From positions 1-52,933 of the IMG/VR virus record IMGVR_UViG_3300012920_000054: 52,933 bases of DNA. The stretch is one strand, 5' to 3'. Shown in pieces: positions 5,098 through 10,832 of the stretch. How positions within the stretch are numbered: the stretch's first letter is position 1; every line of letters starts with the position of its first letter. This DNA is from a virus (Duplodnaviria > Caudoviricetes). The position numbers were made by a program, and so were the translations under genes. The notes under the pieces were generated by a model. The model saw only the letters and a program-made list of their open reading frames with translations. It ran no database searches and was not told where the DNA came from.

Positions 5098-5955
5098 ATG
5101 GCAAAAAGTAAAAGTAATCCATTAGCAGGTTTTTACCGTGCCCCTAAATTATACACGGCAATACCAACTGGTGGAAAATATTATGATGAGGACATCATAG
5201 ACTGGCCTGATACAAATGAATTGCCTATTTTTCCAATGACAGCAAAAGACGAAATGATCATGAAAAATCCAGACGCATTGCTTAACGGAGAAGCAGTTGC
5301 ACAGGTTATTAAAAGTTGTGTACCTTGCGTCAAAGATCCAAGAAAAATGGTTAGCAATGACGTAGACACATTATTAATTGCAATTAATGGTGCAACATAT
5401 GGCGATGAAGTAAATGTATCAGCAAAGTGTCCAGAGTGTGAAACAGACAATAGTGGCGCCGCAAGTGTGCAAACAAGTTTAGATAACATGGTTATGGTTA
5501 AGGACGACTATGAAGTAAACACTGATCAAGGATTAAAAATTACTGTTAAACCATTCCTATATGAAAGCACAATACAGGCAGGACTTGCCAACTTCAAAAC
5601 AACAAGAAGTTTACAGGCATTGCAAGAAGTAGAAGATGAGTTAGAGCAACTTAAAGCATTTAACGAAAACTTTATGAGTATTGCTGGTTTGAACTTTGAT
5701 TTGATCTGTAATAGTGTAAACAGTATTTCTGGCACTGACGCAGACGGTGAAGAGTTTATTGTTACTGATAACAAGAGTATCAGAGAGTTTATGGAAAACT
5801 GTGATGCCGCTATTGGTTCTGCAGTAGAAAAACGTATTGGCGATATCAATGAATTAGGTATCAGCAAAGACTATCAATTAGAGTGTGAGAACTGCGGTCA
5901 TGTATTTAAAACTACTATCGCATTTGATCCTGTAAATTTTTCCACGGCTTCTTAG
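5098..5955 (+). CDS. Baseplate hub assembly/tape-measure chaperone (T4 gp26-like), 285 aa
   Basis: Start revised to ATG 5098 (AGGAG at 5086-5090). Motifs PMTAKDEMIMKNPDALLNG and DVDTLLIAINGATYG, two CxxC pairs (CPEC, CENC), and a terminal FDPVNF. Confidence 0.85.
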   Translation: MAKSKSNPLAGFYRAPKLYTAIPTGGKYYDEDIIDWPDTNELPIFPMTAKDEMIMKNPDALLNGEAVAQVIKSCVPCVKDPRKMVSNDVDTLLIAINGATYGDEVNVSAKCPECETDNSGAASVQTSLDNMVMVKDDYEVNTDQGLKITVKPFLYESTIQAGLANFKTTRSLQALQEVEDELEQLKAFNENFMSIAGLNFDLICNSVNSISGTDADGEEFIVTDNKSIREFMENCDAAIGSAVEKRIGDINELGISKDYQLECENCGHVFKTTIAFDPVNFSTAS

Positions 5956-6176
5956 CAAAAGCAAAACCTGAGGCAGTACTGGAGTTAATTAACAGACTCC
6001 GCAAAGAAGCCGATACCTTAGAAAAGAGCCTTATAGAAATTGCTGTGTATAGTGGCGGAAGTATATCATGGCAAGATGCTCAACTTATGTCCATTAAAGA
6101 ACGTGAATTGACTGTTAAGGTAATCAACAAATATAATCAAATCAAAGCAGGTAAGACTGTAGGGGAAGAAATGTAA
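5940..6176 (+). CDS. gp51-like C-terminal extension (78 codons, -1 frame), probably translated by frameshift from the gp26-like gene
   Basis: Not in the ORF track. The open -1 frame reads FHGFLAKAKPEAVLELINRLRKEADTLEKSLIEIAVYSGGSISWQDAQLMSIKERELTVKVINKYNQIKAGKTVGEEM*. The SWQDAQLMSIKER segment resembles gp51/chaperone C-terminal motifs. No ATG until 6087; slippery AAATTTT at 5934-5940. Confidence 0.75.
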   Translation, partial: FHGFLAKAKPEAVLELINRLRKEADTLEKSLIEIAVYSGGSISWQDAQLMSIKERELTVKVINKYNQIKAGKTVGEEM

Positions 6177-6195
6177 GAGACACTTCGTGTCTTTT
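6175..6195 (+). terminator. Hairpin AGACAC-TTC-GTGTCT followed by T-run; probable terminator of the gp26/gp51 unit
   Basis: Perfect 6-bp stem 6178-6183/6187-6192 immediately after stop 6176, with a short T tract. Confidence 0.5.
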
Positions 6196-6245
6196 CAATC
6201 TACATTCATTCGTTCGTTTCACTCACTTCATTCACTTGATTGAAA
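6193..6245 (-). repeat. Imperfect hairpin with 8-bp outer stem, tandem sheared G-A pairs and GAA triloop
   Basis: TTTCAATC 6193-6200 pairs with GATTGAAA 6238-6245. The minus-strand interior is GTGAATGAAGTGAGT-GAA-ACGAACGAATGAAT. Confidence 0.65.
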
Positions 6246-6249
6246 CTTT

Positions 6250-6630
6250 TTATTAAGATAATCGATTTCATGCAGATTCCGAGGTCATATGAAGCCAACC
6301 AATAAGGCTTCATAAAAAAAGGACTTCATGCGAGTACACGTCGGCCATAAACGAAGACAGGTATTTTGTTTGCACTCTATTGGGCTCTGACCTTACCAAA
6401 CCTGCGTCGATTTTTAATCTCATCTCGCTTCACTTATGAGAATATAGAGTATAGCAATACTTTTCACAACTATTAAGACTTAGCAAATGTATCTCACCAG
6501 TGGGTGGACATTTAAGCATCCTTTCGGGTAGTGCTAAGAATCGCATAACAACCAATGCTCATGCTTACCATCACACGTCAGGATGGATTTCGCAACGGAA
6601 TCATAATTGGCCCGTCAACCGTATGTGTTG
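6250..6630 (-). ncRNA. Candidate large structured non-coding RNA of unknown family
   Basis: Lies in a 566-nt ORF-free gap in an otherwise fully coding genome, directly downstream of the GIY-YIG gene. About ten identifiable stems, a GAAA tetraloop and a pseudoknot; G-U pairs and the GNRA loop favour the minus strand. Boundaries approximate. Confidence 0.6.
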
Positions 6631-6742
6631 TTTGTATGTGTTTTAAGAGTTAGACTTTGTGTCTGTGAGTGCCATGTTTGTATTCAGTAGATACTTATAT
6701 ACACCGATATTAGTGTATAAATTTTTTTGAGTAAAAATGCTC

Positions 6743-7171
6743 TTAAGAGCCTTTAAGGTGTTCCTTAAGAATTTGAGAGCCACCTATACGAACATTGATT
6801 ATGCCGTTGTAGTAGTCATCACTGAGTAACACTTCTCTGTCGAATTGTTCCTTGGCTTCTAAATAACTTGATATGCCCCTGCTAGGACAAAAGTGAAGAA
6901 TTTCTCTGATAAAATTCTCCTCGCCATATTTTTCTACATCTTCTTTGAGATGATCTGAACTTCCCCAATATGTTTTCCAATCGCTTTCTTTGTAACCACG
7001 ACGTTTGTTCTTTTTGCCTTTCAAGGGAGGTTTGGTTGTTTTGAACTTGGCTAGTTTTTTACCAACATACTTCATGCCGTTCTTTTTGTTTGTGATTAGA
7101 TACACAAATGCTTCACAGTCTTCTGGTAATGTGTCTATAATTGCTTTTTCGTATAACCAAGGACTACGCAT
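6743..7171 (-). CDS. Small GIY-YIG endonuclease (catalytic domain only)
   Basis: AFVYLITNKKNGMKYVGKK (GIY...YIG equivalent), YWGSS, conserved Glu in YLEAKEQ and Asn in YYNG. Start overlaps the gp46 stop (TAATG). Confidence 0.85.
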   Translation of the reverse strand: MRSPWLYEKAIIDTLPEDCEAFVYLITNKKNGMKYVGKKLAKFKTTKPPLKGKKNKRRGYKESDWKTYWGSSDHLKEDVEKYGEENFIREILHFCPSRGISSYLEAKEQFDREVLLSDDYYNGIINVRIGGSQILKEHLKGS

Positions 7172-8937
7172 TATGAAATGTACTCTGTATCAGTATTATA
7201 TGCTGTAAAGCCGCCTTCTTTTACAACTGTTAATACATTATTTACACGACCTACAAGTTCTTCTTTATGTGATATAAGCAAAATGTTTTTAGAATGTTCT
7301 CTATTCATTTTCTTGAGTATTGCTAATGCGTTTTCAACACCAGTAGTATCCATACCACTGTCTATAAGTTCATCAACACACATCAAGTTCATAGGATGAT
7401 TGAGACTTTCAAATATGTCTCTGAATGCCCAACTTAGTCCTAGTATAAGTCTATTACGTTCTCCTCTACTTAAATTATCAAAGTCTAAGTCTCTGCCATA
7501 CTCTGTGATCTCTACTCCTAAGTCACTAGCAAATTTTACATCATGCGGCAAACCTAACTTGTCTAAGTAGTGTGCAAGTCTGTGATTTAGATATGCAATA
7601 TTTTGATCAATAATACGTTTACGGATAAAACTGTCTTTGCTTGTTAGAAGTTTGTATAAAAACTCTTGGTGTTCTTTTAGGTGTGTTACTTCGTTAATAA
7701 TTTCAAAGTCAATTTCTTGTATACCTGTTTCACGCAGATTTTCAACTTGTTCATCATATGGATTTATTTCTTCTGCTTTTTCTTCAAGTTGTTTTTCTAA
7801 TGTGTCTAAGTTGTGTTTGTGTTCTAATGCATTTTCTAATGTTTCGTAAAATGTATCTTGTAATTCTGGAAGTACACCTAACTCTTCTAATGCATTGTCA
7901 AGTTCTTGTATACGTTCCTCAAGTCCTTCTCTGTATTTTACTTCTTCTGTGTACTTGTCTTCGAGATCCTTAGTATATTCCTCATGTGTGTCTAAGTGTG
8001 CTGTACTTTGTTCACAAGCAGGACACACACCTTCTTTTGCTTTTTGTATATTGTTCTCTAGTTCTGCTAATTTAGAAATACTTCTATTCAACGAAGTTGT
8101 AGTAGTTGTTTGTTCTTTTTCGATAGTGTTTATAGCAGTTTTTTGCTCACTAACATCTGCATTACTTTTATGTGCGGAAATTTCTTGCTCAATATCTATC
8201 TCCATAAGTGTACTAATGGATGTAGCCATATCTTCAAGTTTTTCAGAATGTGTTTTTGCCCATGCCTTGCTTCTGCTAGTAATCTCACTAATATTTTTTT
8301 CAATACGTTTGTTACTAGCCTCTATGGCATTTATTTTAATTTCTTCTTCTTTGATTCTATCCCTGCTGTCTTTCATAAGTTCTTTGAGAACTTCTGCTTT
8401 TTCGGATAGTTCTGTTATGCCTAACAGTTGTTCAATCATGTCACGTTGATCATTAGGCTTCATACCTAAGAAAGGTTCTGTGTATGTGTTTAGTGCAATC
8501 AAATGCTTAAACATTAGATGAGGGAAACCAATAATTTTCTCAATATCTTTTTGTGTTTCTCTACTGTCGCCTTGTTGTTCTTGATCTCCTGGCTCTACAC
8601 CGTCAATATACAGTTTGAGAATGTTAGGACGTCTGCCTCTTTCTATTCTGTATTCAGTGCCATCAATTTCGAAGTCAACTGTAACAATCATTGACTTACC
8701 ATTTGTTTTGTTGATGAGGTTATCACGCCTAATGTTTGTTAGTGCTTCTCCGTATAGTGCATAACTTAGTGCATTGATAATAGTAGTTTTACCTGTACCA
8801 TTCCTACTTCCATCTCCGCCCATGTCTAGATTGTGCCCTAGTACCAATGTTAAATTAACATTGTCAAAATTTACTGCCTGAGTTTGAGCACCAACACTCA
8901 TAAAATTCTTAGCAGATACGTTTTTGATCTTCAACAT
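7171..8937 (-). CDS. Recombination exonuclease ATPase subunit (T4 gp46 / Rad50-SbcC-like)
   Basis: Walker A NGTGKTT, coiled coils, Zn-hook CPAC, signature LSRGE, Walker B CVDELID and H-loop ISH. Confidence 0.95.
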   Translation of the reverse strand: MLKIKNVSAKNFMSVGAQTQAVNFDNVNLTLVLGHNLDMGGDGSRNGTGKTTIINALSYALYGEALTNIRRDNLINKTNGKSMIVTVDFEIDGTEYRIERGRRPNILKLYIDGVEPGDQEQQGDSRETQKDIEKIIGFPHLMFKHLIALNTYTEPFLGMKPNDQRDMIEQLLGITELSEKAEVLKELMKDSRDRIKEEEIKINAIEASNKRIEKNISEITSRSKAWAKTHSEKLEDMATSISTLMEIDIEQEISAHKSNADVSEQKTAINTIEKEQTTTTTSLNRSISKLAELENNIQKAKEGVCPACEQSTAHLDTHEEYTKDLEDKYTEEVKYREGLEERIQELDNALEELGVLPELQDTFYETLENALEHKHNLDTLEKQLEEKAEEINPYDEQVENLRETGIQEIDFEIINEVTHLKEHQEFLYKLLTSKDSFIRKRIIDQNIAYLNHRLAHYLDKLGLPHDVKFASDLGVEITEYGRDLDFDNLSRGERNRLILGLSWAFRDIFESLNHPMNLMCVDELIDSGMDTTGVENALAILKKMNREHSKNILLISHKEELVGRVNNVLTVVKEGGFTAYNTDTEYIS

Positions 8938-8939
8938 AA

Positions 8940-9956
8940 TTAAATTTCTATTCCGTTATAGATGTCGATAAGTCTTTGTTTATCAATAGTTTTAGAGTCA
9001 ATAGTTTCTAATTGTGTGATAACAATCTTATCCACACTTTCAAATTCAATCTCGCCACCTTCGTAGGCTTCCTCTTCTTCCTTGATTGGTATAAGTTGTA
9101 ATTCTCGTACATTATATTGCTCTGCCATCTTTTCTCTTATAAAGTTTGCCTCTTCATAAGATATACTGATGTCAAGTTTTACTCTTGCATAAGTGTACTC
9201 GTCTAATAGTGTTTCGTGATTGTCTAGCAGATCTTTTAATGTAAAAGATTTGTACTTAGGACATTCTGCCCAGTTTACATACACTGGCTCCTTGTCCCAT
9301 TCTAAGAACATTGCACCTCTGTCAGTATCGCCAACGTCTGCGTAATTGTGTGGGAAAGCATTACCTATATAGTGTATGTTGTTTTTGTATTGACGTTTGT
9401 GGAAGTGTCCACTAAACACATATTCAGGACCTGATAAGTCCTCTGCTTTAAGTCCACCGTGGTCGGGCATATCTACTAGGGCGTTCATTTTGAAGTACGG
9501 CAACTCTAGGTGCCCAAAGAAATATTTGGCTGTACATTTGGAAAGTGTTTTCCATTCGTCGCCAACCAACCACGGGGAAATTGCTACATCACCTTGCTCA
9601 AATGGTTCATCAACCATTACAAAGTTCGATAAGTCTCTTGCGTATTCGATGCTGTTTAGATCACGTTTGTCTCTGTAGTACAAATCATGATTACCTGTAA
9701 TAAAGTATACCTTTTCAAAAGCATCATTTAGTTTTTTTAAGTCTTTGATTGTTGCGTTCATAGTAGCAATATTAATACTTGCTCTATGATGATGCCAATC
9801 ACCTAGAAATATACATGTCTCACAATCTCTTGCTTTAGACTCTTCGATAAACCAATCTACAAATCTAGCACAATCGTCGAGATGTAATCTACTATTTTGC
9901 TTTAGGCCGTAGTGAATATCCGTGAAACACGCGGCATGTTTAAAAAGTTGTGACAT
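8940..9956 (-). CDS. Recombination exonuclease nuclease subunit (T4 gp47 / Mre11-SbcD-like)
   Basis: Metallophosphoesterase motifs TDIH, GDWHH, GNHD, GHLE and GHFH; adjacent to gp46. Confidence 0.95.
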   Translation of the reverse strand: MSQLFKHAACFTDIHYGLKQNSRLHLDDCARFVDWFIEESKARDCETCIFLGDWHHHRASINIATMNATIKDLKKLNDAFEKVYFITGNHDLYYRDKRDLNSIEYARDLSNFVMVDEPFEQGDVAISPWLVGDEWKTLSKCTAKYFFGHLELPYFKMNALVDMPDHGGLKAEDLSGPEYVFSGHFHKRQYKNNIHYIGNAFPHNYADVGDTDRGAMFLEWDKEPVYVNWAECPKYKSFTLKDLLDNHETLLDEYTYARVKLDISISYEEANFIREKMAEQYNVRELQLIPIKEEEEAYEGGEIEFESVDKIVITQLETIDSKTIDKQRLIDIYNGIEI

Positions 9957-9959
9957 AAA

Positions 9960-10832
9960 TTAATCAAAGGCTCCTTCATCGCTTTTCCCTGATTCCATTG
10001 ATTCCCGCAGAATTCTCATTTCGTCTTCGTGTTTAATCTGTCTGCTGTAACTTGGTAAGTGCCCTTGATCTATTAGAATATCATCTCTGATACTTTGATT
10101 ACGTTTTTCAAGATTTAGTACTCTTGTAAAACTATTAATAACTGCCGCTGTATAGTATGCAAAAGGATTATCACTTTTTGCTTCGTTAAACTGTAAGCCT
10201 ACTTGGCTAAGTTGAACTAATGCTTGTCCACGCATTTCATCTACATAAGTGTAACCACGCCAGTTTGCTCTGTGGCTAAATCTTTCAACAAGTTTTAAGA
10301 ACATAGTTCCAAGTTTGTTAGTGATTCTTCCTACAGACGGACTAAATTTTCCGTTGCTTAGGCTACCTTCCCAATGACTTCTTGCAACTTCTTTAAGTTC
10401 TCCATTTTGAAATGCATAATGCTTGAAAGGTGGAAAATTAACTTTTGCCTTTGTTTCTGCTTCATTTCTAGGATTCTTTTTTCTGCCAGGCTCTAATGGA
10501 ATGTGTTCCATTGTCATGACTCTAAAAGTTACATCTTCGTCTGAAATAGTAGCAATATCTACAGCAAACTCTTTTTGCTTTGGCTTGTTTCTGTAGTCGC
10601 CACTACCATGCTGTATCATTGCTTCAGCATAGGCTTCGCTTTGAATTCTTGATGCTTGGTTTTCTTTTGCTTGTTTAATTGCTGTTTTATTAATCTTCTT
10701 AACGTCATCTACAATAACGTCATGCTGGAAATATTTCTCGTCCGATAGCCAACAAAAACTCATCTTGCTTTTGTGAATCTCTTTCAAGATGTCCTTATTA
10801 TTAAGGTAATTTACCTTCTTAGGTTGTGCCAT
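9960..10832 (-). CDS. Late transcription sigma factor (T4 gp55-like)
   Basis: N-terminal NYLNNKD, then NWRGYTYVDEM and NPFAYYT motifs typical of gp55. Canonical gp55-gp47-gp46 order. Confidence 0.88.
   Translation of the reverse strand: MAQPKKVNYLNNKDILKEIHKSKMSFCWLSDEKYFQHDVIVDDVKKINKTAIKQAKENQASRIQSEAYAEAMIQHGSGDYRNKPKQKEFAVDIATISDEDVTFRVMTMEHIPLEPGRKKNPRNEAETKAKVNFPPFKHYAFQNGELKEVARSHWEGSLSNGKFSPSVGRITNKLGTMFLKLVERFSHRANWRGYTYVDEMRGQALVQLSQVGLQFNEAKSDNPFAYYTAAVINSFTRVLNLEKRNQSIRDDILIDQGHLPSYSRQIKHEDEMRILRESMESGKSDEGAFD

What the first reader, a model, noticed from the sequence alone, without database searches (positions are those of the whole stretch)
6250..6742. Candidate large pseudoknotted ncRNA directly downstream of a minimal GIY-YIG nuclease
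Seen in sequence: 6177-6742 is by far the largest non-coding gap in the window. On the minus strand I can pair by eye (plus coordinates) 6617-6612/6598-6593; 6586-6582/6572-6568; 6564-6559/6548-6543; a three-way junction closed by 6538-6532/6485-6479 holding a CC-GAAA-GG hairpin (6527-6520) and 6512-6508/6490-6486 plus 6506-6503/6498-6495; 6441-6436/6423-6418; a long-range closing helix 6412-6407/6265-6260; 6405-6400/6362-6357; 6399-6396/6383-6380, whose loop AGGUCA (6393-6388) is complementary to UGACCU (6287-6282), giving a pseudoknot; and a 9-bp hairpin 6314-6306/6296-6288. GCAUGAA occurs twice in the 3' domain (6331-6325, 6273-6267). A TATAAGTA late-like motif at 6699-6692 could give it its own promoter. 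I do not recognise it as tRNA, tmRNA, RNase P or a group I/II intron. Inference: an undescribed ornate phage RNA at the end of the gp55-gp47-gp46-GIY-YIG operon, possibly a nuclease partner, a ribozyme or a replication primer RNA.
Basis: partly seen in the sequence, partly recalled or inferred. Interest (0 to 1): 0.9.

Follow-up and report, generated by a model that had tools for sequence, protein, structure and literature searches.

The report
Large twin-word structured phage RNA
The gene-free half kilobase behind a small nuclease gene of this uncultured marine giant T4-like phage encodes a real, elaborately folded non-coding RNA that hundreds of related phages share; it shows the same short word twice, and its job is still unknown.

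Summary
Observation confirmed. The gap is by far the largest ORF-free stretch of the window.

The element (about 6177-6685, minus strand) is conserved and syntenic. It occurs in 79 of 123 protein-anchored viral loci, 188 of 238 motif-anchored viral loci and 119 of 120 metagenome loci.

Compensatory changes support most helices. G.U versus A.C counts put the RNA on the minus strand (219 vs 12; 53 vs 14). Metatranscriptome contigs from three studies cover 6173-6680 but not the neighbouring gene.

No Rfam family matches (0 hits in the window and 49 related loci), and no cultured phage carries the element.

Not supported: the long-range closing helix and a conserved late promoter. The pseudoknot is always pairable but barely covaries.

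New finding: two single-stranded 12-nt segments 58 nt apart carry the same 7-nt word in 80 of 81 distinct relatives (10 words). No complementary partner was found.

The nuclease looks like a neighbour, not an obligate partner. Function is unknown.

This scan has met the same family before on other genomes. Those notes tie freshwater relatives to Rfam RF01718, a link I could not reproduce here.

The parts
6177..6685 (-). The whole RNA as best delimited. The structured body is 6635-6177; the 5' leader runs from about 6685.
   Evidence: Conserved block found by nhmmer and cmsearch. RNA-library contigs cover 6173-6680. The flank beyond the 3' hairpin is not conserved.
6593..6617 (-). 5' hairpin UGACGG/CCGUUG with a conserved loop
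   Evidence: 6 of 6 pairs in the window. The arms covary by eye (GAUAG/CUAUC, AGCAG/CUGCU, CGCAG/CUGCG). The homologous group-B helix has 4 of 4 compensatory pairs.
6543..6586 (-). Two small hairpins (6586-6582/6572-6568 and 6564-6559/6548-6543) in a variable region
   Evidence: Complementary in the window. 77% and 65% of cells paired on 10 relatives. The region differs between subgroups.
6479..6538 (-). Three-way junction: closing helix, CC-GAAA-GG hairpin (6527-6520), and 6512-6508/6490-6486 with 6506-6503/6498-6495
   Evidence: Closing helix 100% paired with 4 compensatory pairs; inner helices 96% and 79%. The GAAA hairpin is replaced by longer hairpins in relatives.
6418..6441 (-). Hairpin UCUCAU/AUGAGA with a conserved GAAGCGAG-type loop
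   Evidence: 95% paired, 6 of 6 pairs compensatory. The loop motif recurs across subgroups.
6357..6405 (-). Helix GCAGGU/ACCUGU enclosing hairpin UUGG/CCAA with the conserved 12-nt loop UAAGGUCAGAGC (6395-6384)
   Evidence: 97.6-99.2% paired, 2-3 compensatory pairs. The loop is nearly invariant.
6388..6393 (-). Loop strand AGGUCA of the candidate pseudoknot
   Evidence: Pairs with 6287-6282. In one search, five of the six pairs are pairable in 81-82 of 82 rows and the sixth in 7 of 82, with no double-sided change. One compensatory case.
6282..6287 (-). 3' strand UGACCU of the candidate pseudoknot
   Evidence: Same evidence as the loop strand.
6339..6356 (-). Small hairpin CUUCG/CGACG
   Evidence: 71-74% paired, 2-3 compensatory pairs, poorly aligned.
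6324..6335 (-). Twin word, copy 1: ACUC-GCAUGAA-G
   Evidence: The same 7-nt word as copy 2 in 80 of 81 distinct rows. Left unpaired in the consensus folds.
6288..6320 (-). U7 run (6320-6314) and hairpin UAUGAAGCC/GGCUUCAUA (6314-6306/6296-6288) between the two words
   Evidence: 92-98% paired, 5-6 compensatory pairs. Its mismatches are G.U on the minus strand (15 G.U vs 1 A.C).
6266..6277 (-). Twin word, copy 2: AUCU-GCAUGAA-A
6193..6245 (-). 3' domain: helix UUUCAAUC/GAUUGAAA around 37 purine-rich nt built of YGAA repeats
   Evidence: Closing helix 97.9% paired with 7 of 8 compensatory pairs in group B. Sequence. The tandem G.A pairing is inference.
6178..6192 (-). Terminal hairpin AGACAC-GAA-GUGUCU, the 3' boundary of the element
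   Evidence: 100% paired with 4 of 6 compensatory pairs in group B. Flanks beyond it are unrelated between loci. On the plus strand it is followed by UUUUC and may end the convergent gene (inference).
6692..6699 (-). UAUAAGUA, a late-promoter-like motif (doubtful)
   Evidence: Present. RNA-library contigs end 12-21 nt downstream of it. A comparable motif is present in only 25 of 172 leaders.
6260..6265 (-).
   Evidence: 6 of 6 pairs in the window, but 42-65% paired and no covariation in relatives.
6743..7171 (-). Neighbouring 142-aa SegE-type GIY-YIG gene (context, not shown to be part of the RNA's function)
   Evidence: PF19835, E = 4.6e-33. Directly upstream of the RNA in 167 of 188 loci. 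Lacks the RNA in 41 of 295 loci.

Best explanation
Window 6177 to about 6685, minus strand, is the gene of a large (about 460-510 nt) multi-domain structured non-coding RNA. It belongs to a big family found only in uncultured marine giant T4-like phages.

Shown:
- The sequence is conserved in a fixed position, after the gp47-gp46-GIY-YIG genes and convergent with the baseplate-hub gene.
- Most helices are kept by compensatory changes.
- The wobble-pair asymmetry fixes the strand.
- RNA libraries hold this stretch without the neighbouring gene.

Inferred:
- The RNA accumulates as a stable species of its own. I cannot tell whether it comes from a start near 6680-6685 or from processing of the operon transcript.
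- It acts in trans as a scaffold that presents two unpaired copies of one 7-nt word, one on each side of a hairpin.
- A common reader binds both copies: a nucleic acid that pairs with the word, or a dimeric or twice-binding protein. Selection for that shared reader keeps the copies identical while the word itself drifts between phages.

For: Conservation and synteny:
- Element found in 79 of 123 protein-anchored loci, 188 of 238 motif-anchored viral loci and 119 of 120 metagenome loci.
- 167 of 188 copies lie directly behind the GIY-YIG gene on the same strand.

Structure:
- Group B, full length: 79 pairs in 15 helices, 97.5% of cells paired against 38-42% slid. 44 pairs change on both sides, against 22.7 +/- 2.5 in shuffles (0 of 500).
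- 3' core of group A: 90.5-91.8% paired, with 11-12 compensatory pairs. This includes 7 loci that were not in the model's seed.

Strand (G.U/U.G versus A.C/C.A in the helices):
- 219 vs 12.
- 53 vs 14.
- 30 vs 2 without the poorly aligned hairpin.

Expression:
- Contigs from 4 metatranscriptome runs of 3 studies cover 6173-6680. None covers 6717-6918. Their right ends lie at 6671-6680.

Twin word:
- Identical 7-nt word in both copies in 80 of 81 distinct rows, with 10 different words.
- 130 of 157 unique sequences pass a strict pattern.
- Mutual information of 1.4-1.6 bits between the two sets of columns, and no third set comparable.
- Both copies lie in stretches the consensus folds leave unpaired.
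Against: - Single-sequence folding energy of the minus strand is no better than shuffles (z = -0.89).
- Contigs cannot show strand, ends or level, and one RNA contig runs on to 6087, past the 3' hairpin.
- No conserved promoter: 25 of 172 leaders.
- No reader was found. There is no complementary site in the RNA, within about 5 kb on either side, or in the 52.9-kb window, and the internal X region is not a cognate partner (mean z about 0).
- The trans-acting scaffold role is therefore inference only.
- Related sequences can beat the shuffle controls without any structure. The slid controls and the wobble asymmetry answer that objection only in part.
Confidence: 0.6

Rival explanations
1. It is only the long structured 3' untranslated end of the gp47-gp46-GIY-YIG messenger. 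In that case it is a cis-acting terminator and stabiliser block that protects the operon RNA or stops convergent transcription, with no trans function.
For: It lies directly after the stop codon on the same strand in 167 of 188 loci. There is no conserved promoter (25 of 172). It ends in a strong hairpin that sits between convergent genes.
Against: About 15 covarying helices and a concerted twin word are far more than a terminator needs. RNA libraries hold the element but not the gene upstream of it. The hairpin has no U tract on the minus strand. The same gene does without the element in 41 of 295 loci.
Confidence: 0.12
2. It is a ribozyme, for instance one that cuts itself free from the operon transcript or acts on another RNA. 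The twin words would then be substrate or guide segments.
For: Size, a conserved core with variable peripheral domains, a conserved loop with a candidate pseudoknot, and a separate RNA species without a conserved promoter.
Against: No match to any ribozyme family of Rfam in the window or in 49 related loci. No cleavage site or splice-like joint was seen; the only joint lies outside the element. There is no catalytic test.
Confidence: 0.08
3. The RNA is the partner or guide of the neighbouring minimal GIY-YIG nuclease, and the twin word addresses two nuclease copies to a target.
For: Tight adjacency and co-orientation (167 of 188; 254 of 295). The protein has no appended binding domain: 142 aa, PF19835 only. 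The word is variable, unpaired and present twice.
Against: A 71%-identical protein in the cultured phage Melnitz sits behind the ribonucleotide reductase genes with no such gap. No core match was found in its whole genome or in four large viral contigs. 41 of 295 loci have the gene without the RNA, and 8 of 188 RNA loci lack the gene directly upstream. The protein is 70-92% identical across loci whose words differ. No binding was tested.
Confidence: 0.06
4. It is a DNA-level element: a replication origin with a primer transcript, iterons, or a recombination site. The two words would be protein-binding or crossover repeats.
For: Direct repeats that change in step are typical of iterons and crossover cores (recalled knowledge). 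The position near baseplate genes loosely recalls T4 ori(uvsY) (recalled). It is the largest non-coding gap in the window.
Against: Helices are kept by compensatory changes, and their mismatches are G.U on one strand only (219 vs 12). That is an RNA signature, not a DNA one. There are only two repeats, with fixed differences between them. No composition test was run.
Confidence: 0.04
5. It codes for small proteins. Both words contain start-codon-like NUG-A and open short frames (14 and 21 codons in the window).
For: About 85% of the words read AUG, GUG or UUG followed by A. Short ORFs start at both words.
Against: Hairpin covariation changes the encoded residues (for example R to W, R to Q) and indels break the frames. 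Some words have GAG, AAG, CAG, CGG or CGC at that place. No Shine-Dalgarno sequence precedes them, although the phage's own genes have one.
Confidence: 0.02

Closest known systems
Polynucleobacter-1 RNA motif (Rfam RF01718; Weinberg et al. 2010, PMC2864571; I saw only its table row)
   Same: According to earlier follow-up notes of this scan, it is an orphan structured-RNA motif from aquatic samples with unknown function. The notes say it forms the first third of full-length 'twin-word' RNAs that sit behind a GIY-YIG gene in freshwater T4-like giant phages.
   Different: The Rfam model (141 positions, cut-off 37 bits) finds nothing in this window even at E <= 10. It also finds nothing in 49 related loci. 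The 5' and middle domains differ strongly between subgroups. If the relation is real, the marine branch has diverged beyond the model, and two thirds of the RNA are uncatalogued.
GOLLD and ROOL, large ornate phage-associated RNAs (Rfam; Kretsch et al. 2025, PMC12286853, search listing and start of abstract only)
   Same: Several hundred nucleotides, many covarying helices, encoded by phages, function unknown.
   Different: No sequence or structure match. A different genomic setting: no tRNA neighbours and a fixed slot behind gp46/GIY-YIG. Oligomer formation was not tested here. The twin word is not a reported feature of those RNAs (recalled).
Satellite phage P4 immunity: CI RNA with seqA/seqC (recalled from memory, no call)
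   Same: Two direct repeats in one transcript that must stay alike because a single complementary sequence reads both.
   Different: Here no complementary segment exists in the RNA or nearby. The RNA is also about seven times larger.
Type III toxin-antitoxin antitoxin RNAs such as ToxI, and phage pseudo-ToxI (recalled from memory)
   Same: Tandem direct repeats in a structured phage or host RNA that evolve in concert because one protein reads each unit.
   Different: Here only about 12-26 nt of each 58-nt unit are alike and the hairpins of the two units differ. No toxin gene follows; the next gene is convergent. The repeats are a small part of a 0.5-kb fold.

Membership tests
Rfam RF01718 Polynucleobacter-1 | Match to the family covariance model at or above 37 bits | tested here: not met
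   No match at E <= 10 in the window. No match at E <= 1 in 15 related loci. No match at the gathering score in 34 more.
Rfam RF01718 Polynucleobacter-1 | Homology of the 5' third to a genuine RF01718 member | not testable with these tools
   I held no RF01718-positive sequence. The claim comes from earlier scan notes only.
Known large RNAs and ribozymes in Rfam 15 (GOLLD, ROOL, HEARO, OLE, RNase P, group I/II introns, tmRNA, 6S) | Match to any of the 4227 covariance models | tested here: not met
   0 matches at gathering score in the whole window. Only two chance-level hits (E = 3 and 9.9, unrelated families) in 5900-7000. ARAGORN found 0 tRNA or tmRNA genes.
Twin-word phage RNA family (this element's own family, defined here) | Conserved 3' core: helix GCAGGU/ACCUGU, loop hairpin and central hairpin | tested here: met
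   Window scores 156.5 bits with model R1. 30 matches at E <= 0.01 over 100 sources, 94 matches over 100 sources, and 90-92% of cells paired.
Twin-word phage RNA family (this element's own family, defined here) | The same 7-nt word twice, flanked ACUC.../AUCU..., about 58 nt apart | tested here: met
   Window: GCAUGAA at 6331-6325 and 6273-6267. Family: 80 of 81 rows identical and 79 of 81 with the ACUC/AUCU flanks.
Twin-word phage RNA family (this element's own family, defined here) | Slot directly 3' of the SegE-type GIY-YIG gene that follows gp46, ending in a hairpin | tested here: met
P4-type immunity RNA (direct repeats read by an internal complement) | A segment complementary to both repeats in the same transcript | tested here: not met
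   No consistent complementary site in 50 sequences or their flanks. Cognate versus non-cognate duplex energies give a mean z of about 0.
Type III antitoxin RNA | Near-identical tandem units followed by the toxin gene on the same strand | tested here: not met
   The units share only the word and a few flanking bases. The next gene is convergent.
Intrinsic terminator (for the 3' hairpin, minus strand) | G+C-rich hairpin followed by a U run on the transcribed strand | tested here: not met
   The tail on the minus strand is CUUACAUUUC. The U run (UUUUC) follows the hairpin on the plus strand.
RNA-guided nuclease system (RNA plus adjacent GIY-YIG protein) | Obligate co-occurrence of protein and RNA | tested here: not met
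   41 of 295 gene-bearing loci lack the RNA. Melnitz and four large contigs show no core match. 8 of 188 RNA loci lack the gene directly upstream.
RNA-guided nuclease system (RNA plus adjacent GIY-YIG protein) | Physical binding and word-dependent cleavage | not testable with these tools
   Needs biochemistry.

The most novel reading that the evidence does not exclude
The twin word is a programmable address. On this reading the RNA is the adaptor of a so far unknown RNA-addressed system of giant marine phages. It would hold two copies of an effector, possibly the co-transcribed minimal GIY-YIG nuclease, on a nucleic-acid target that pairs with the word. Fast, concerted word changes would then retarget the system. 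That would be a new class of RNA-guided machinery unrelated to CRISPR, IscB/TnpB or bridge RNAs.
Probability: 0.06. Interest if true: 0.95.

Novelty: new variant of a known kind. Interest (0 to 1): 0.76.

Why it matters
Large structured RNAs of unknown function are rare, and each one found so far has opened new biology. This one has several properties that make it worth pursuing:

- It is about 0.5 kb long and is kept by compensatory evolution in hundreds of uncultured marine giant phages.
- It is present in RNA libraries from the sea.
- It has no match in Rfam and is absent from all 50,697 cultured or deposited phage records searched.
- Its twin word changes between phages but always in both copies. 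That points to a specific reader, RNA or protein, that is still to be found.

It might also yield a new sequence-addressed RNA tool.

The finding also corrects annotation. The gap is a gene, and pieces of the family may sit unnamed in catalogues of short candidate RNAs.

Tried and rejected
1. Single-sequence folding. The z-scores (-0.89 minus strand, -1.98 plus strand) do not single the region out. I rejected them as a criterion because the comparative signal is strong.

2. Global MAFFT plus RNAalifold on all 50 sequences gave almost no structure. The subgroups had to be treated apart.

3. RNAalifold on the window's subgroup paired the 5' strand GACGGG with CCUGUC far downstream. I rejected that in favour of the local 5' hairpin, which is perfect in every subgroup inspected.

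4. Partner of the twin word:
- No complementary site in the element, in the flanks or in the window on either strand.
- The variable X region between the loop hairpin and the helix 3' strand is not a cognate partner.
- Pairing of GCAGGU with the start of copy 2 is possible in 96.8% of cells but is not above shuffles.
- The loop could also pair with a UGGCC in the first unit (80.4%, no double-sided change).
- A generic search for the 'longest exact direct repeat' did not beat shuffles, so I replaced it with column-based counts.

5. Palindrome idea (word pairs with itself or with the other copy). Many words contain CAUG, ACGU or UCGA, but by my own reading of the word lists only about 7 of 16 variants are palindromic. 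That is not clearly above chance, and it was not computed.

6. Promoters:
- CTATAAATA-like motifs are not enriched in the window (29 found, 32 expected).
- A near-consensus sigma-70 site at 6108-6137 on the plus strand is not conserved.
- The late-type motif after the stop codon occurs in 25 of 172 leaders.

7. Cultured relatives:
- No blastn match for three representative elements.
- The nearest cultured phage by gp46, PA5oct, has a syntenic poorly annotated stretch but no match to my models.
- No core match in Melnitz or in four large contigs. That model covers group A only, so this is weak.

8. The PDB sequence search with the nuclease found nothing.

9. Motif scans:
- The raw counts in viral contigs and genome contigs are near chance expectation for such short patterns. 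I used only the confirmed subsets.
- Only 3 of 80 GTDB hits are real, and they are probably phage contigs binned into MAGs.

10. RNA runs:
- Parts of the window without cover prove nothing by themselves.

11. The catalogue of Fremin and Bhatt 2023 (PMC10690425; search listing plus four passages) names no T4-like or baseplate-linked RNA in its text. Its supplements, which list the 8,495 candidates, are closed, so short pieces of this RNA may be in there.
Full report
SETTING. The window is a 52.9-kb fragment of an uncultured virus record, rated about 14% complete, which implies a giant phage.

Gene order around the finding:
- Plus strand: a baseplate-hub (gp26-type) gene at 5098-5955, and a start-less -1 frame that stays open to 6176.
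- Minus strand: a 142-aa SegE-type GIY-YIG protein (6743-7171; PF19835, E = 4.6e-33), gp46 (7171-8937), gp47 (8940-9956) and a gp55-type late sigma factor (9960-10832).

With ORFs of 75 aa or more, 5956-6742 is the largest uncovered stretch (787 nt; the next is 164 nt).

THE OBSERVATION. GCAUGAA stands at both stated places.

Folding energy alone does not mark the region. The minus strand gives z = -0.89 (21 of 100 shuffles as good) and the plus strand z = -1.98. The decision has to come from comparison with relatives.

CONSERVATION AND SYNTENY.
- A search with the hub protein fetched 43 related viral loci.
- The gap DNA itself aligns in most of them, at about 72% nucleotide identity even where the hub protein is only about 60% identical.
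- A search with the GIY-YIG protein fetched 80 more loci, out of at least 597 matching stretches.
- A profile of the element hits 79 of these 123 loci. That gives 50 distinct sequences, 47-97% identical to the window.
- They fall into a group A, which includes the window, and a more distant group B.
- Two 15-nt motifs fetched 238 further viral loci, of which 188 carry the element.
- Of 80 motif hits in GTDB genomes, 3 are real: two contigs of one Neomarinimicrobiota MAG and one of a Crocinitomicaceae MAG. They are probably binned phage DNA.
- No record among 50,697 deposited phages matches three representative elements.

The element keeps its slot:
- 167 of 188 motif-found copies lie directly behind the GIY-YIG gene on the same strand. 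13 cannot be judged and 8 do not.
- The sequence beyond the terminal hairpin is unrelated between loci.
- Extra genes can sit between the hub gene and the element.

STRUCTURE AND STRAND.

Group B, 24 full-length sequences:
- RNAalifold predicts 79 pairs in 15 helices.
- 97.5% of cells pair, against 38-42% when partners are slid.
- 44 pairs change on both sides, against 22.7 +/- 2.5 in shuffles (0 of 500).
- The covariation score is 0.360 against 0.166.

3' core of group A, 21 sequences:
- 90.5% of cells pair and 12 of 29 pairs are compensatory.
- A covariance model built from this alignment gave 30 matches over 100 sources. These include 7 loci not in its seed and two weak ones, none in group B and none in the Melnitz locus. 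The counts on that alignment are the same.
- On 94 further matches, 91.8% of cells pair and 11 of 29 pairs are compensatory.

- 82.4% of cells pair, against 35-40% slid.
- 25 of 72 pairs are compensatory, against 14.0 +/- 2.3 in shuffles (0 of 500).
- Helix by helix: the three-way junction, the 6441/6418 hairpin, the 6405/6357 helix and the 6314/6288 hairpin are solid.
- The 5' hairpins are supported but blurred by MAFFT.
- The long-range helix 6412-6407/6265-6260 is not supported.

The pseudoknot AGGUCA/UGACCU:
- Five of its six pairs can form in essentially every member.
- It shows one compensatory case among 21 sequences and none among 87.
- I call it plausible, not shown.

The mismatches in the helices are G.U on the strand of the GIY-YIG gene, and hardly ever A.C:
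- 219 vs 12.
- 53 vs 14.
- 41 vs 12, or 30 vs 2 without one poorly aligned hairpin.

This fixes the RNA on the window's minus strand. It also argues against a purely DNA-level element.

EXPRESSION.
- Six metatranscriptome runs hold small shares of the stretch. I laid four of them, from three studies.
- In all four, assembled contigs cover the element. Pieces span 6087-6601 and 6574-6679; 6349-6444 and 6415-6680; 6346-6495; and 6173-6396, 6368-6531 and 6515-6671.
- None covers 6717-6918, and the GIY-YIG gene is almost bare.
- The right ends at 6671-6680 lie 12-21 nt downstream of UAUAAGUA (6699-6692).
- Contigs show neither strand, ends nor level, and one runs past the 3' hairpin. This is therefore moderate evidence for a stable RNA species of its own, not proof.
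- A late-promoter-like motif after the stop codon is not a family feature: 25 of 172 leaders, against 2 of 172 in a control stretch. Processing from the operon transcript is an equally good origin.

THE TWIN WORD.
- Two segments 58 nt apart, ACUC-GCAUGAA-G (6335-6324) and AUCU-GCAUGAA-A (6277-6266), flank a U7 run and the best-supported hairpin.
- Across the family the 7-nt word differs, but both copies carry the same word.
- On a model-based alignment the copies are identical in 80 of 81 distinct rows, with 10 words. 79 of 81 rows keep the fixed flanks ACUC and AUCU. Copy 1 ends in G in 77 of 81 rows.
- A strict pattern finds identical cores in 130 of 157 unique sequences of both groups, with 9 and 6 cores. 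The other 27, printed, show matching copies with other tails where both copies are in view.
- Mutual information between the two sets of columns is 1.4-1.6 bits, and no third set comes near.
- Close relatives with the same intervening hairpin can carry different words.
- Both words lie in stretches that the consensus folds leave unpaired.
- I found no complementary partner in the RNA, in the flanks or in the window.
- Most words read NUG followed by A, like start codons. Hairpin covariation and indels rule out conserved reading frames, and some words break the pattern.
- A relation of identity rather than complementarity points to a shared reader, or to alternative pairings with a site I could not find.

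THE NEIGHBOUR.
- The GIY-YIG protein is 70-92% identical over the best 80 loci.
- Its closest cultured relative (71%) is in Methylophilales phage Melnitz. There it follows the ribonucleotide reductase genes and has no such gap.
- 41 of 295 loci with the gene lack the RNA.
- The group-A core model finds nothing in the Melnitz genome or in four large contigs of that kind.
- The protein therefore does not need the RNA beside it, and I found nothing that links the word to the protein.

COMPARISON WITH WHAT IS KNOWN.
- Rfam 15 gives no match at the gathering score in the window.
- It gives only two chance-level hits at E <= 10 around the element.
- It gives nothing in 49 related loci.
- ARAGORN finds no tRNA or tmRNA.

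After I had found the family and the twin word, I looked up earlier notes of this scan.
- The same kind of RNA behind a GIY-YIG gene has been followed up many times on other genomes. A word search returns 306 notes in at least 242 genomes.
- The verdicts are the same: a real RNA, a twin word, an unknown reader, and the nuclease as a neighbour.
- Those notes name the orphan Rfam motif Polynucleobacter-1 (RF01718) as the first third of freshwater relatives.
- I tested that lead. The model finds nothing in this window at E <= 10 or in any related locus I scanned.
- For the marine branch, membership is therefore not met.
- I could not fetch an RF01718-positive relative to test homology directly.
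- The 2010 paper gives only a table row for the motif.

VERDICT. The finding is a real minus-strand gene for a large structured RNA of a widespread marine-phage family.
- It has no match in Rfam and is partly known to this scan.
- The functional ideas remain open.
- I put about 0.95 on 'real structured minus-strand RNA', and about 0.6 on the fuller statement that it is a separate trans-acting RNA which presents its twin word to one shared reader.

Noticed in passing
window 5928-6176 (+), slippery site 5934-5940: AAATTTT lies in the right phase at the end of the hub gene. The -1 frame is open for 82 codons to 6176 without an early start codon, which suggests a possible programmed -1 frameshift fusion.
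   Followed up: no
window 6108-6137 (+): Near-consensus sigma-70-type site TTGACT-18-TATAAT (11 of 12) inside the -1 frame ORF, pointing into the element. It is not conserved: the 49 relatives reach at most 9 of 12, at scattered places.
   Followed up: yes
window 6640-6690 (-), and leaders of related loci: The RNA leader carries CAUGGCAC (6676-6669) and a small AGAC-N5-GUCU hairpin. Relatives carry several such copies. GGCA occurs 1.17 times in the first 130 nt against 0.26 in nt 200-330, over 172 leaders. The meaning is unknown.
   Followed up: partly
L364 6517-8030 (Pseudomonas phage PA5oct, NC_071039.1 about 75666-77180): The nearest cultured phage by gp46 (53% identity) has the same gp55-gp47-gp46 row. 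It is followed by about 1.4 kb holding only 38-50-aa annotated ORFs before the baseplate-hub gene. This may be unannotated non-coding RNA. There was no match to my models.
   Followed up: partly
L435, L443, L366 (GTDB genome contigs): Two contigs (335 kb and 153 kb) of one Neomarinimicrobiota MAG and one 72.8-kb contig of a Crocinitomicaceae MAG carry the RNA core at 101-116 bits. They are probably giant-phage contigs binned into bacterial MAGs.
   Followed up: partly
window 6743-7171 (-) and GenBank phage records: Homologues of the 142-aa GIY-YIG protein are labelled 'NAD synthetase' in many deposited cyanophage and rhizobiophage records and in PHROG 447. Pfam places the protein in SegE_GIY-YIG. 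This looks like a propagated misannotation.
   Followed up: no
window 6193-6245 (-): The 37-nt interior of the 3' domain is built of YGAA units on both arms. These could pair as U-A steps alternating with tandem G.A pairs. Here it is part of the RNA, and its closing helix covaries (7 of 8 pairs in group B).
   Followed up: partly
L140, L151, L165 and others: In some subgroups the tail after the word differs (AAUG/AAUA, GAUG, or AUCAUCAAGU twice) but again matches between the two copies. In one subgroup the tail of copy 2 enters a long hairpin in the variable spacer that follows.
   Followed up: no
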